Source: Escherichia virus TH15. Taken from it: 64,000 nucleotides of DNA. The stretch lies in the sequence record MT446392.1. The stretch is one strand, 5' to 3'. A program made the position numbers and the translations under genes. Below, in pieces: positions 943-3,701 of this stretch (within the stretch, counting starts at the first letter, position 1; the number at the start of each line of letters is the position of its first letter). The notes under the pieces are model-generated. The model saw only the letters and a list, made by a program, of their open reading frames with translations, ran no database searches and was not told where the DNA came from.

Positions 943-1016
943 GGCCCTGTAGCTGGACGGTCAAGCGAGCGACTCATAATCGCTGGATGGTGGTTCGATT
1001 CCACCCAGGGCCACCA
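943..1016 (+). tRNA. tRNA, anticodon CAT (Met or lysidine-type Ile)
   Basis: Cloverleaf: acceptor GGCCCTG/CAGGGCC, anticodon stem AGCGA/TCGCT loop CTCATAA, T-arm GGTGG-TTCGATT-CCACC, encoded CCA. Confidence 0.85.
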
Positions 1017-1150
1017 AACTTATTTTAAATTATCATGGCGATAGGTATTGTAGATGCGGTTCGATTCCGTCCGGGGTAAGTGCCCTAGCATGCTTGGAGC
1101 ATGAGTGACTTAATATTGGTGGTTCGAGTCCACCCCGCTATGAACAAACA

Positions 1151-1226
1151 CGAGGCATAGCTCAGAAGGAAGAGCAAGGACCTTCTAAGTCCTAGGTCGT
1201 AGGTTCGATTCCTACTGTCTCGACCA
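1151..1226 (+). tRNA. tRNA-Arg, anticodon TCT
   Basis: Acceptor CGAGGCA/TGTCTCG, D-arm AGCTCAG, anticodon stem AGGAC/GTCCT loop CTTCTAA, T-arm GTAGG-TTCGATT-CCTAC, CCA. Confidence 0.85.
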
Positions 1227-1540
1227 AACAAGAAACCGGGTCGCTACCGGTAAGTCGTCGGACTGAAGTTCCCTGTTTAAGGACTGACATTAATAAATCT
1301 TTATGTTTTGTTAATGACCCCTTATCTCACAGCTGAAACGGCGCACCTAATTATCGATTCGAGGAAATATCTTTGCCGTAAGCCGAGTGGCGTTTTTGAC
1401 GGAACGTTCGGATATGGTCGAGATATGGCCTTTTAAAAATATTGAGTAGCGTCAACTACTTGATAACCGGGTTCGAATCCCGGCGTATCGTACAAACACT
1501 TGCCTAGCAGGTGGAACCCCGACAAGGTTACCCTAGGTTA

Positions 1541-1571
1541 AAGCCCCTCCCGAAAGGTTGGGGCTTTTTTA
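1541..1571 (+). terminator. rho-independent terminator after tRNA cluster
   Basis: GC stem AGCCCC/GGGGCT then T6. Confidence 0.6.
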
Positions 1572-2285: not shown

Positions 2286-2711
2286 ATGAACTTTCTGACC
2301 CTGACCTCTGCATTCTCTGTTACCCGCATCACTAACAAAATGGTTGCTGATGAAGTATGTGAAATCTGCATTCGTGAAGATGCACTTATCCATCTGACTT
2401 CAACCCAAATTGTTGCCATCGCCAAGTCCCTTAATTCTGAACTGAAGGTAAACACCAAACAGTCAAAAGAATCCATCATTGAATTAATCCAAGCTGAAAT
2501 GATTGAATTCCCAATTGAAGAAGTTAAAGAAGAAAAAATCCAGTCCAAATCTGGTAACGCCCGTGACATTTGCTTCCAGGCATTTGCAGAAATTGATATG
2601 AATGATAATGCAGCTCGTCGCGCTCTGATTGATGACCTGGTTACTACCCATGATATCAAAAAGACTGTTGTTCAGTCTTATGCTTCCAACTTCCGCAAAG
2701 CTCAAAAATAA
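2286..2711 (+). CDS. hypothetical protein (paralog of 2795..3238)
   Basis: 141 aa; C-terminal NxAARRALID...VQSYASNFRK shared with next gene. Confidence 0.6.
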   Translation: MNFLTLTSAFSVTRITNKMVADEVCEICIREDALIHLTSTQIVAIAKSLNSELKVNTKQSKESIIELIQAEMIEFPIEEVKEEKIQSKSGNARDICFQAFAEIDMNDNAARRALIDDLVTTHDIKKTVVQSYASNFRKAQK

Positions 2712-2722
2712 TTGAGAAAAGT

Positions 2723-2752
2723 GTTTTACTTCCAAGTGGGATAGTGTATAAT
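2723..2752 (+). promoter_or_regulatory. T4-type early promoter
   Basis: -35 GTTTTACT, -10 TATAAT, followed by conserved leader. Confidence 0.55.
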
Positions 2753-2794
2753 TATCCCATACTGAGTTACCAAATAAACAAACGGGATAATAAA

Positions 2795-3238
2795 ATGAAA
2801 ACTTCAAAACTGGTTAAGTACGTTAAACTGGCATTAAACAACTCTTCTGAAGCTGAAGCGCAATCCGCAGCGCGTATGTTCTTCAAACGTCTGACAGCTG
2901 AAGGTATTTCATTTAACCCGGCAGTATTTGGTATCACTCGTGGCGAAGCTGCTAAACTGGCAACTCTGGCAGGTAAAATTTTTAAAGGTCTGAATGATGG
3001 ACAGGTTAAACCAGAAGTTAAACCTACTCCTAAAGCTGAACCAAAAGCTGAGTGTAAGGCACCTAAACGCTCCGGTATGAGCAACAAAGATTTATGCTAT
3101 GATATGTTCAAAACTGTTAATATGTCTAATGGTGCTGCTCGCAGAGCTGTTATTGATATGATTGTGCGTGAGTTTGGATTCAACAAAGCATCAGTTCAAT
3201 CTTATGCTTCCAACTTCCGCAAAGAATTTGAAATTTAA
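2795..3238 (+). CDS. hypothetical protein (paralog of 2286..2711)
   Basis: ATG at 2795 after GGGATAATAAA; track ATG 2744 lies inside promoter. Confidence 0.6.
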   Translation: MKTSKLVKYVKLALNNSSEAEAQSAARMFFKRLTAEGISFNPAVFGITRGEAAKLATLAGKIFKGLNDGQVKPEVKPTPKAEPKAECKAPKRSGMSNKDLCYDMFKTVNMSNGAARRAVIDMIVREFGFNKASVQSYASNFRKEFEI

Positions 3239-3245
3239 TTCAAAA

Positions 3246-3265
3246 AGGGGGTATACAAGCCCCCT
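3246..3265 (+). terminator. GC hairpin (terminator-like) containing a promoter -35
   Basis: Stem AGGGGG/CCCCCT, 8-nt loop holding GTATACA. Confidence 0.5.
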
Positions 3266-3280
3266 GCTTTAAGGCATAAT
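3251..3280 (+). promoter_or_regulatory. T4-type early promoter embedded in hairpin
   Basis: -35 GTATACA in hairpin loop, 17-nt spacer, -10 CATAAT. Confidence 0.55.
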
Positions 3281-3319
3281 GATTCCATACTGAGTTACCA
3301 AATAAAACTGGAGAATAAA

Positions 3320-3625
3320 ATGAAATTCATCATCAACCTGGCGCTTGTTGACTTTGATAAAACTGGTAATTTCGCATCTGCTGAAAATATGATTCGCAAC
3401 ACTAAGTTCAAAGTGCAAGTCCAGCAGGCGGTAGCAAAAGAGTTCTTTACTGATAAATTAACCCACGTTGTCAATCACCTGAATGTGCAAGTTAAATTCA
3501 CTCGTAAAGCAGAAACTACAGTTGAATTTGATTTTGAATGTCGTTACCATGATGAATATGTTCGCCGCATCCTTAATATTGTATCTGATGAACTTTACTA
3601 TGGTGTGCAGGAAAACAAAATCTAA
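3320..3625 (+). CDS. hypothetical protein
   Basis: 101-aa ORF with GGAGAATAAA SD. Confidence 0.55.
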   Translation: MKFIINLALVDFDKTGNFASAENMIRNTKFKVQVQQAVAKEFFTDKLTHVVNHLNVQVKFTRKAETTVEFDFECRYHDEYVRRILNIVSDELYYGVQENKI

Positions 3626-3629
3626 ATCA

Positions 3630-3659
3630 GTGTACGCTTTAACGGGAACATGATAGTAT
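3630..3659 (+). promoter_or_regulatory. possible early promoter
   Basis: -35 GTGTACG, 17-nt spacer, weak -10 TAGTAT; overlaps 8-bp inverted repeat GGGAACAT/ATGTTCCC. Confidence 0.35.
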
Positions 3660-3701
3660 GTTCCCTGGATAATAAAACATTAACCAACTGAAGGAAATAC
3701 C

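What the first reader, a model, noticed from the sequence alone, without database searches (positions are those of the whole stretch)
1017..1551. tRNA cluster contains T-arm-like motifs that do not fold into canonical tRNAs
Besides the two clear tRNAs, the region contains three further T-arm-like sequences (GCGGTTCGATTCCGTC near 1057, GGTGGTTCGAGTCCACC near 1118, CCGGGTTCGAATCCCGG near 1467). I could not pair acceptor stems for any of them at tRNA spacing. These may be decayed tRNA genes, or parts of small stable RNAs of the kind T4 encodes in its tRNA region. The 330-bp ORF-free stretch 1227..1551 ends in a strong terminator.
Basis: seen in the sequence. Interest (0 to 1): 0.45.

Follow-up and report, generated by a model that had tools for sequence, protein, structure and literature searches.

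The report
Unannotated twin-T-arm tRNA-like phage RNA
The three "orphan" T-arm motifs are not dead tRNA genes. One is the T-arm of the long-known T4 small RNA C, and the other two are hairpins of a single ~110-nt tRNA-derived RNA that no database annotates and that T4-like and N4-like enterobacterial phages share.

Summary
GGTTCGANTCC occurs five times in the 64-kb window, against 0.06 expected by chance. All five lie at 992-1480 on the + strand. Only two belong to canonical tRNAs, Met at 943-1016 and Arg at 1151-1226.

Motif 3 (1467-1483) is the T-arm of the T4 rnaC ortholog at 1354-1492, 97% identical to T4. The rnaD ortholog lies at 1228-1347 and the terminator at 1542-1570. These RNAs are known, but their function is not.

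Motifs 1 and 2 are two hairpins of one discrete element at 1034-1143. It is 95-100% conserved in eight T4-like phages of several genera. It is 75-80% conserved in Gamaleyavirus and Kaypoctavirus N4-like phages. It carries no annotation in any of 41 GenBank records, and Rfam has no matching family.

Covariation supports a 7-bp acceptor-like stem that encloses T-arm 1, a variable hairpin, a D-arm-like UUGG hairpin and T-arm 2. In that structure 97.5% of cells are paired and 18 pairs show compensatory changes.

I read it as a tRNA-derived stable RNA that is probably processed like a tRNA. Its inner half has the circularly permuted tRNA layout seen in YrlA. Its function is inferred only, and tRNA mimicry in phage-host conflict is my best guess.

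The parts
943..1016 (+). tRNA-Met(CAT), canonical; the first gene of the RNA array
   Evidence: ARAGORN; Rfam RF00005, 62.6 bits
1034..1143 (+). Twin-T-arm tRNA-like RNA (element E), from the first base of the acceptor-like stem to the discriminator-like A1143
   Evidence: BLAST homology is bounded at 1034-1150 in T4-likes and 1050-1141 in N4-likes. Model R1 scores it 110 bits at 1030-1145. Relaxed ARAGORN finds the same outer frame, 1034-1143.
1034..1040 (+). P1 5' strand (CAUGGCG). It pairs with 1136-1142 to form a 7-bp acceptor-like stem. A1041 and C1135 face each other unpaired.
   Evidence: 6 of the 7 pairs show changes on both sides and 92% of cells are paired. RNAalifold recovers the stem.
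1044..1051 (+). 5' strand of the tentative helix P2, partner of 1108-1117
   Evidence: 96% of cells are paired against 34-64% when slid, but almost all changes are one-sided. RNAalifold does not predict it. Constrained folding forms it in only one clade.
1056..1070 (+).
   Evidence: 100% of cells are paired. Pair 1057-1069 is C-G, G-C, U-A or A-U depending on the clade, and pair 1056-1070 is G-U, A-U or G-C.
1073..1086 (+). P4, a hairpin of variable sequence and length that sits where a closed acceptor stem would sit in a permuted tRNA
   Evidence: 100% of cells are paired and 4 of 5 pairs show changes on both sides. Its length differs between clades.
1089..1103 (+). P5, a D-arm-like hairpin preceded by UAG, with a 5-bp stem and loop UUGGA
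   Evidence: 100% of cells are paired and 3 of 5 pairs show changes on both sides.
1107..1117 (+). Highly conserved strand GACUUAAUAUU (family consensus GACUUARUAYY). It is either a joining region or the 3' strand of tentative P2.
   Evidence: GACTTA and TA are invariant across the three close clades.
1118..1134 (+).
   Evidence: 100% of cells are paired and 2 pairs show changes on both sides.
1136..1142 (+). P1 3' strand (CGCUAUG)
1151..1226 (+). tRNA-Arg(TCT), canonical
1228..1347 (+). Ortholog of T4 rnaD (species 2 RNA)
   Evidence: Aligned to the annotated T4 feature T4s002 at 82.6% identity.
1354..1492 (+). Ortholog of T4 rnaC (species 1 RNA).
   Evidence: Aligned to T4s001 at 97.1% identity. 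The MFE fold is -49.2 kcal/mol with z = -3.7 and includes the T-arm and the closing stem.
1493..1570 (+). 3' trailer and intrinsic terminator (hairpin 1542-1565, T-run to 1570)
   Evidence: the trailer is conserved in T4, slur07 and MN04.

Best explanation
Region 943-1570 is one dense, same-strand array of five RNA genes: tRNA-Met, a new tRNA-like RNA (E, 1034-1143), tRNA-Arg, rnaD and rnaC, ending in a terminator.

Shown: E is a real, selected, structured RNA. A 7-bp acceptor-like stem (P1) closes a junction that carries four hairpins, in this order: T-arm 1, a variable hairpin (P4), a D-arm-like hairpin with a UUGG loop (P5), and T-arm 2, which abuts P1.

Inferred from the anatomy: P1 plus T-arm 2 form the 'top half' of a tRNA. 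RNase P, 3' trimming enzymes and the CCA-adding enzyme all recognise that shape. E is therefore probably cut out of the tRNA-cluster transcript and stabilised in the same way as the neighbouring tRNAs and T4 RNA C. The inner run T-arm 1, P4, UAG, P5 is a circularly permuted tRNA body (T, then closed acceptor, then D). Bacterial YrlA Y RNAs have the same layout. E has no anticodon arm, so it cannot decode.

Inferred function, weakest step: E acts as a tRNA mimic with two elbows that binds or titrates a tRNA-recognising factor. Given where it sits and how patchily it is distributed, that factor is most likely part of the phage-host conflict over tRNAs.

My rough confidence in each step: real structured RNA gene 0.9; tRNA-type processing 0.6; decoy or mimic function 0.3.
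For: The element has sharp, discrete boundaries and is 95-100% identical across T4-like genera whose flanks do not align. Its core is 75-80% identical in Gamaleyavirus and Kaypoctavirus podophages. It is the only sequence shared between the G7C non-coding region and the window.

Covariation is strong. On a plain MAFFT alignment 95.6% of cells are paired and 14 pairs change on both sides, against 42-59% paired when partners are slid. On the model-fitted alignment the figures are 97.5% and 18 pairs. RNAalifold independently returns P1, both T-arms, P4 and P5. P1 has almost entirely different sequences in the clades: CAUGGCG, GACGGG, GGUGGG, GGCAAG and AGAGGUG.

Model R1 scores family members at 107-143 bits and ordinary tRNAs at 30 bits or less.

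The context is always RNA genes or intergenic DNA on the transcribed strand. It lies between tRNA-Met and tRNA-Arg here, after tRNA-Met/Ile2 in Kanagawaviruses, and within about 70 nt of a tRNA in phage JZBo1.

In N4-like copies the 3' end after P1 reads N-CC, as in a tRNA that lacks only its terminal A.

Literature gives precedents. A YrlA with a 7-bp acceptor is cleaved by RNase P and receives CCA, and YrlA has the T-AS-D order (PMC4201824). T-even tRNA clusters act as anti-defence loci (PMC13096335, PMC11555353).
Against: I have no expression or end-mapping data, so processing is inferred. Helix P2, which would join the two halves into two L-shapes, is not supported by RNAalifold or by thermodynamics, and its variation is only one-sided. 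The D-like hairpin is not a canonical D-arm: it has a 5-bp stem and a 5-nt loop and lacks the A14/R15 equivalents. T4-like copies do not encode CC after P1. Single-sequence folding is no better than shuffles for the window copy (z = -0.78). No partner protein or target has been identified. The family is narrow, with three close clades plus one distant copy, so many of the compensatory 'cells' are inherited from a few events.
Confidence: 0.6

Rival explanations
1. Motifs 1 and 2 are remnants of decayed tRNA genes, for example the tRNA-Tyr and tRNA-Asn that related phages carry between tRNA-Met and tRNA-Arg. On this view they drift neutrally.
For: Relatives have tRNA-Asn (MN04) or tRNA-Tyr plus tRNA-Asn (slur07) in the same slot. 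The parts are clearly tRNA-derived: T-loops, UAGC...UUGG, and a GACUUAAUA strand that resembles the tRNA-Leu(UAA) anticodon loop.
Against: There is no alignable homology to those tRNAs. The element is 95-100% conserved across genera and is present in unrelated podophages. Eighteen pairs show compensatory changes and 97.5% of cells are paired. One copy, U1G, carries a 1-nt deletion and shows what a damaged copy looks like, and it is the exception.
Confidence: 0.04
2. E is an unusual but functional decoding tRNA, for instance one with an intron or with extra arms.
For: ARAGORN with introns allowed and an 80% threshold calls 'tRNA-Met(cat) with a 22-nt intron' at exactly 1034-1143.
Against: That call cuts through T-arm 1, P4 and P5, all of which covary. 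No conserved 7-nt anticodon loop or anticodon stem exists. The Rfam tRNA model gives no hit at E <= 10 even on a 117-nt search. P4 loops are 4-6 nt long and variable.
Confidence: 0.04
3. E is a Y RNA of the YrlA type that tethers a Ro60/Rsr-like protein.
For: The inner domain has the T, then AS hairpin, then D order that defines the YrlA tRNA-like module (PMC4201824).
Against: The Rfam YrlA model does not hit the inner domain. The GNCGAAN0-1G Rsr motif is not conserved: it reads GGCGAU here, GACGGG in the Gamaleyaviruses and GGCAAG in the Kaypoctaviruses. No rsr gene is adjacent. The outer stem is a tRNA acceptor plus T-arm, not a Ro-binding stem.
Confidence: 0.07
4. The selected function is at the DNA level or acts in cis. 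Candidates are a homing-endonuclease or recombination target in a variable cassette slot, or a processing spacer that helps the flanking tRNAs mature.
For: The Met-Arg slot varies between relatives: tRNAs, a 159-aa ORF in phage FB, and segB nearby in T4. SegB-type endonucleases act in tRNA clusters (PMC13096335).
Against: Compensatory changes preserve RNA helices rather than a DNA sequence. The element also occurs away from tRNAs, in L085 and G7C, so it is not simply a spacer for its neighbours.
Confidence: 0.1

Closest known systems
T4 RNA C (rnaC, species 1 RNA) and RNA D (rnaD, species 2 RNA)
   Same: They are small stable non-decoding RNAs encoded in the T-even tRNA cluster on the same strand as the tRNAs. 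RNA C, like E, has an acceptor-like stem next to a canonical T-arm that closes an oversized body. Their function is unknown (PMC3014915, PMC9697503). Window 1228-1347 and 1354-1492 ARE these RNAs.
   Different: E has no sequence similarity to either, and R1 and BLAST do not cross-hit. E has two T-arms and a D-like hairpin. It is absent from T4 and from about 99% of T4-like records. Unlike rnaC and rnaD, it is shared with N4-like phages.
YrlA (bacterial Y RNA with a tRNA-like domain; Rfam RF02553)
   Same: It contains a circularly permuted tRNA-like module in the order T stem-loop, non-conserved closed 'acceptor' hairpin, D stem-loop. It is tRNA-derived and non-decoding (PMC4201824).
   Different: E gives no covariance-model match, has no Rsr-binding motif and has no rsr neighbour. 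The module in E is mounted on a tRNA acceptor/T-arm top half rather than on a Ro-binding stem. The D-like hairpin in E has a 5-nt loop.
Canonical and class II tRNAs, and tRNA pseudogenes
   Same: They share a 7-bp acceptor stem abutting a 5-bp T-stem with a UUCGANU loop, a UAGC...UUGG D-arm signature, and a location in a tRNA array.
   Different: E is 109 nt long, has four hairpins in the order T, variable, D-like, T, and has no anticodon arm. ARAGORN and RF00005 both fail on it.
tRNA-like domain of tmRNA
   Same: It has an acceptor stem plus T-arm without a normal anticodon arm. The only Rfam hits to E, which are very weak, are to tmRNA T-arms.
   Different: E has no mRNA-like reading frame or pseudoknots. 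ARAGORN's tmRNA mode finds nothing credible. E is 110 nt against more than 300 nt.
Interdigitated double T-loop modules (T-box stem I distal end, RNase P, L1 stalk)
   Same: They place two T-loop motifs in one RNA. In those systems the pair forms a platform that stacks on a tRNA elbow (my own knowledge).
   Different: Those T-loops are 5-nt motifs embedded in internal loops, not two complete tRNA-type T-arms. Nothing here tests whether the two loops of E interact.

Membership tests
tRNA (RF00005 / ARAGORN) | Cloverleaf with D-arm, 5-bp anticodon stem with 7-nt loop, T-arm and 7-bp acceptor, total length 70-95 nt | tested here: not met
   Default ARAGORN gives no call. Relaxed modes give only forced calls that break covarying helices. 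E is 109 nt and has no conserved anticodon arm.
tRNA (RF00005 / ARAGORN) | Match to the Rfam tRNA covariance model at the gathering score | tested here: not met
   No RF00005 hit over 1030-1146 even at E <= 10. The flanking tRNAs score 62.6 and 68.4 bits.
T4 rnaC (species 1 RNA) | Sequence orthology and synteny with the annotated T4 feature T4s001, downstream of tRNA-Arg and rnaD | tested here: met
   Window 1354-1492 is 97.1% identical and has the same gene order. This applies to motif 3 only.
T4 rnaD (species 2 RNA) | Sequence orthology and synteny with T4s002, immediately after tRNA-Arg | tested here: met
   Window 1228-1347 is 82.6% identical.
T4 rnaC/rnaD (as a home for element E) | Sequence or model similarity between E and rnaC or rnaD | tested here: not met
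   R1 hits nothing in 1228-1492 at E <= 1. BLAST with rnaC and rnaD hits no E-bearing N4-like locus.
YrlA / bacterial Y RNA (RF02553) | tRNA-like module in the order T stem-loop, AS hairpin, D stem-loop | tested here: met
   T-arm 1 (1056-1070), P4 (1073-1086) and P5 (1089-1103) occur in that order, and each is supported by covariation. The layout definition comes from PMC4201824.
YrlA / bacterial Y RNA (RF02553) | Match to the Rfam YrlA covariance model | tested here: not met
   The only hit, at E = 7, spans T-arm 2 plus the 5' half of tRNA-Arg. There is no hit on 1030-1146 alone.
YrlA / bacterial Y RNA (RF02553) | GNCGAAN0-1G Rsr-binding motif near the 5' end | tested here: not met
   The corresponding sequence is GGCGAU in T4-likes, GACGGG in Gamaleyaviruses and GGCAAG in Kaypoctaviruses, so it is not conserved.
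YrlA / bacterial Y RNA (RF02553) | Encoded next to an rsr (Ro60/TROVE) gene | tested here: not met
   In the annotated relatives and here the neighbours are tRNAs, rnaD/rnaC and small hypothetical ORFs. I did not scan whole genomes for TROVE proteins.
tmRNA | tRNA-like domain plus a tag reading frame and pseudoknots | tested here: not met
   ARAGORN finds none. Rfam gives only 13-17-nt T-arm fragments at 5-11 bits.
RNase P / CCA-enzyme substrate (functional class) | Coaxial acceptor (7 bp) plus T-stem (5 bp) helix with a T-loop | tested here: met
   P1 (7 bp) abuts T-arm 2 (5 bp), with one unpaired C between them.
RNase P / CCA-enzyme substrate (functional class) | Actual cleavage at the 5' end of the acceptor stem and CCA addition at the 3' end | not testable with these tools
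   This needs an enzyme assay or end mapping.

The most novel reading that the evidence does not exclude
E would be the founding member of a class of phage 'two-elbow' tRNA mimics. In this reading, a tRNA top half processed by the tRNA machinery carries a second, permuted tRNA body. The RNA would then act in trans as a decoy or inhibitor of a tRNA-recognising host factor, such as a tRNA-cleaving defence nuclease or its sensor, or a tRNA-modifying, repair or processing enzyme. It would have been exchanged horizontally between T4-like and N4-like phages as an RNA-only counter-defence gene. Acceptor-closed double-T-arm RNAs recur in unrelated viral contigs, which suggests the design is more general.
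Probability: 0.25. Interest if true: 0.85.

Novelty: new variant of a known kind. Interest (0 to 1): 0.6.

Why it matters
Phage tRNA clusters are now recognised as counter-defence loci, and T4's RNAs C and D have had no known function for 50 years. This window carries a third RNA of that sort. It has an unusually clear, covariation-backed structure, and unlike C and D it is shared between two unrelated families of coliphages. That sharing argues for a portable function that does not depend on the host phage. The element is absent from Rfam and from every genome annotation I checked, and its spot is left unannotated in all of them. It is small and easy to delete, mutate or express in trans in tractable E. 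coli phages such as VR5, VR25 and G7C. Testing what tRNA-shaped non-decoding RNAs do during infection is therefore practical.

Tried and rejected
1. Canonical or relaxed tRNA detection gave only forced calls, so I rejected it.
2. Rfam at gathering and permissive thresholds on the window, on the 117-nt element and on the G7C region matched no family.
3. Aligning the Met-Arg spacer to the tRNA-Tyr and tRNA-Asn of relatives showed no real homology.
4. Single-sequence MFE folding was uninformative and partly wrong.
5. Six IMG/VR pattern scans, one metagenome scan and one bacterial-genome scan recovered only the same clades.
6. Candidate R1 hits in L182, L184, L144 and L190 turned out to be tandem tRNAs.
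7. E. coli genomes and plasmids gave no copy.
8. Helix P2, and an anticodon-like hairpin around GACUUAAUA, are not conserved or not supported, so I keep P2 only as tentative.
9. An AlaRS-type G3-U70 or any other fixed identity pair in P1 is not conserved between clades.
10. Pfam on the ORFs next to L085 and on the phage FB insert gave nothing.
11. Literature searches for a prior description found none. The library is incomplete, so an earlier description cannot be excluded.

Full report
OBSERVATION

The T-loop core GGTTCGANTCC occurs five times in the 64-kb window. All five are on the + strand within 992-1480, against 0.06 expected by chance. ARAGORN and the Rfam tRNA model assign only two of them to tRNAs, tRNA-Met(CAT) at 943-1016 and tRNA-Arg(TCT) at 1151-1226. 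Relaxed ARAGORN produces only forced calls. No ORF of 50 aa or more lies wholly inside 865-1603. A terminator hairpin at 1542-1565 followed by a T-run closes the region.

WHOSE GENOME

The window is a T4-like (Tevenvirinae) coliphage. Its closest relatives are TH22 at 97%, and VR25 and VR5.

THE RIGHT-HAND PART (1227-1551) IS KNOWN

In T4 (NC_000866) the annotated order is tRNA-Arg, rnaD (species 2 RNA) and rnaC (species 1 RNA). Aligning the window to T4 maps rnaD to 1228-1347 (82.6% identity) and rnaC to 1354-1492 (97.1%). This block is present in about 750 phage records. Motif 3 is the 3' T-arm of rnaC. It sits directly next to an acceptor-like stem (about 1355-1361/1484-1490) that closes a 139-nt body. 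The fold is much more stable than shuffled sequence (-49.2 kcal/mol, z = -3.7). RNAs C and D are expressed late in T4 infection and their roles remain unknown (PMC3014915; PMC9697503).

THE LEFT-HAND PART (1017-1150) IS ONE CONSERVED ELEMENT

BLAST of the Met-Arg spacer gave an unexpected result. Positions 1034-1150 are 95-100% identical in a handful of T4-like phages from different genera: VR5, VR25, TH22, TH40, the Kanagawaviruses PEi20, PEi26 and KLB31, and the Karamvirus CkP1. Positions 1050-1141 are 76-80% identical in about 28 N4-like Gamaleyavirus podophages, including G7C, EC1-UPM, pSb-1, PhAPEC5/7 and St11Ph5. A reciprocal search from G7C added two Klebsiella Kaypoctaviruses at about 75%.

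No feature is annotated under the match in any of the 41 records, two of which carry no annotation at all. The flanks do not align between groups. This element is the only sequence shared between the 1.2-kb non-coding region of G7C and the window. There are no copies in 5,426 complete E. coli genomes, in 72,556 plasmids or in 185,579 bacterial species genomes. Metagenomes gave seven more Gamaleyavirus-type copies.

STRUCTURE

Comparing the clades by eye, and then formally, gives the following helices in window coordinates.

- P1: 1034-1040 with 1136-1142, 7 bp and acceptor-like. A1041 and C1135 face each other unpaired.
- T-arm 1: 1056-1059 with 1067-1070, loop UUCGAUU.
- P4: 1073-1077 with 1082-1086, variable in sequence and length.
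- P5: 1089-1093 with 1099-1103, preceded by UAG, loop UUGGA.
- T-arm 2: 1118-1122 with 1130-1134, loop UUCGAGU.

On an unbiased MAFFT alignment of 22 distinct copies, 95.6% of cells form standard pairs and 14 pairs change on both sides. When the partners are slid by 1-3 columns, pairing falls to 42-59%. That alignment even misplaces P1 of the T4-like copies. After realignment to a covariance model (R1), 97.5% of cells pair and 18 pairs change on both sides, with 0 of 500 shuffles reaching any measure. RNAalifold, which predicts its own structure, recovers P1, both T-arms, P4 and P5.

P1 has an almost completely different sequence in each clade: CAUGGCG/CGCUAUG, GACGGG/CCCGUU, GGUGGG/CCCACU, GGCAAG/CUUGCC and AGAGGUG/CACCUCU. 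One pair of T-arm 1 is C-G, G-C, U-A or A-U depending on the clade. This pattern is not what decayed genes show.

A caveat applies. There are only three close clades plus one distant copy, so many compensatory cells descend from a few events.

A further helix, P2 (1044-1051 with 1108-1117), would join the two halves. It is compatible with the data: 96% of cells pair, against 34-64% when slid. However, its variation is almost all one-sided, RNAalifold does not predict it, and constrained folding forms it in only one clade. I treat it as tentative. Its 3' strand, GACUUARUAYY, is the most conserved non-T-loop sequence in the family.

ANATOMY COMPARED WITH tRNA

P1 and T-arm 2 form the top half of a tRNA, a 7-bp acceptor abutting a 5-bp T-stem. 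Relaxed ARAGORN finds this same outer frame at 1034-1143. Inside it there is no anticodon arm. Instead the order is T-arm 1, closed hairpin P4, U-A-G, and then a D-arm-like hairpin. That is the order of a tRNA read from its variable loop through a closed acceptor stem to its D-arm, in other words a circularly permuted tRNA body. Chen et al. described the same T, AS, D layout for the tRNA-like module of bacterial YrlA Y RNAs. They also noted that tandem tRNAs mimic it (PMC4201824). The element is therefore plausibly derived from a tRNA dimer.

It is nonetheless not a YrlA. The Rfam YrlA model does not match the inner domain, the GNCGAA Rsr motif is not conserved, and no rsr gene is nearby. It also fails the tRNA and tmRNA models. 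It has no similarity to rnaC or rnaD.

CONTEXT AND DISTRIBUTION

The element always lies on the transcribed strand among RNA genes or in intergenic DNA.

- Here it lies 17 nt after tRNA-Met and 7 nt before tRNA-Arg.
- In the Kanagawaviruses it directly follows tRNA-Met/Ile2.
- In JZBo1 it lies about 70 nt after a tRNA-Arg.
- In the Gamaleyaviruses it sits in a long non-coding region.

The Met-Arg slot is a variable cassette site in T4-like phages. MN04 has tRNA-Asn there, slur07 has tRNA-Tyr plus tRNA-Asn, FB has a 159-aa ORF, and T4 has segB next to tRNA-Arg. Only about 8 of roughly 750 T4-like phages carry the element. This patchy, horizontally shared, lytic-phage-only distribution resembles that of accessory counter-defence genes. 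Phage tRNA clusters have recently been shown to serve that purpose (PMC13096335; PMC11555353).

MECHANISM

Shown: this is a selected RNA structure with a tRNA-type acceptor/T-arm frame.

Inferred: RNase P, 3' trimming and CCA addition excise it from the polycistronic transcript. The N4-like copies already encode N-CC after P1. A YrlA with a 7-bp acceptor is processed in exactly this way (PMC4201824).

Inferred, weakest: it acts as a non-decoding tRNA mimic that presents two T-loop elbows to some tRNA-recognising factor. I found no partner or target.

A WIDER PATTERN

R1 found a distant copy with the same architecture in an unrelated viral contig (L085 8183-8293, 47.7 bits). That copy is intergenic and has no tRNAs nearby. 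I also examined 122 distinct closely spaced T-loop pairs sampled from IMG/VR. Twelve are enclosed by a 7-bp acceptor-like stem with at least 6 Watson-Crick pairs, against 1-3.4 in three controls. One locus, L133, has three T-arms inside such a stem. The design may therefore be more general than this one family.

VERDICT

'Decayed tRNAs' is rejected. 'T4-type small stable RNAs' is right: motif 3 belongs to the known RNA C, and motifs 1 and 2 belong to a previously unannotated twin-T-arm tRNA-like RNA. I rate it a new variant of a known kind, of moderate to high interest. What it does is unknown, but it can be tested directly in tractable coliphages.

Noticed in passing
L004 (G7C, HQ259105) 2470-3660; also L142, L138, L143: Gamaleyavirus phages carry a non-coding region of about 1.2 kb between gp47.2 and a terminator. 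Besides element E it holds further T-arm-like pieces, such as UUAGGUUCAACUCCUAA about 45 nt upstream of E. ARAGORN and Rfam find no tRNA there in G7C. In PhAPEC5, PhAPEC7 and Moonfish an odd 79-nt 'tRNA-Ile(aat)' is called about 200 nt downstream of E. More unannotated structured RNAs probably lie there.
   Followed up: partly
L133 2352-2472 (IMGVR_UViG_3300022857-type locus): A stem GUGCGCU/AGCGCAC encloses three T-arm-like hairpins (CCGGUUUAAUUCCGG, GUGGUUCGAAUCCAC, GAAGGUUCGAUUCCUUC) in a contig with ten tRNA genes. It appears to be a different multi-T-arm RNA.
   Followed up: no
L019, L021, L029, L054, L059, L065, L083, L088, L109, L135 (coordinates): Unrelated viral contigs contain 90-130-nt stretches in which a 7-bp acceptor-like stem encloses two T-arms. 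This is enriched about 4-10-fold over controls (12 against 1-3.4 of 122). It may be a broader class of phage tRNA-like RNAs.
   Followed up: partly
L085 8183-8293 (-), IMGVR_UViG_3300031994_000337: This is a distant copy of the twin-T-arm architecture (47.7 bits with R1). It sits in a 90-nt gap between ORFs of a phage with no Pfam-recognisable neighbours and no tRNAs within 14.5 kb.
   Followed up: partly
L282 (phage vB_EcoM_FB) 1222-1572; also rows for many T4-like records: Many GenBank T4-like records annotate 'hypothetical protein' CDSs over the rnaD/rnaC region. In FB, for example, CDS 1222-1572 overlaps part of rnaD at 1571-1687. Few records annotate the RNAs themselves. This is probably widespread misannotation.
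   Followed up: no
window 1151-1226 compared with T4 tRNA-Arg: The window's tRNA-Arg(TCT) is only 52% identical to T4's tRNA-Arg(TCT), while the adjacent rnaC is 97% identical. The tRNA allele has been replaced while the flanking RNA genes were kept.
   Followed up: no
L007 (CkP1) 1960-2000: Immediately upstream of element E in CkP1 there is the 3' end of a tRNA (T-arm CCGGUUCAAGUCCGG plus ...GGGGCCACCA). ARAGORN does not call it, and an annotated 636-nt CDS overlaps it. The tRNA gene may be disrupted by an inserted ORF.
   Followed up: no
L270 (phage U1G) 102-220: This copy of E has a 1-nt deletion in the 3' strand of T-arm 1 and a G-U in P1. It is the lowest-scoring Gamaleyavirus copy (124.7 bits) and may be a degenerating copy.
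   Followed up: no
window 1107-1115 compared with phage tRNA-Leu(UAA) anticodon loops: The invariant strand GACUUARUA resembles the anticodon loop of T4-type tRNA-Leu(UAA), CACUUAAAAUG. Its only variable base, A or G, would switch UAA to UAG, and both are Leu anticodons. This could reflect ancestry or be coincidence, since no anticodon stem is conserved.
   Followed up: partly
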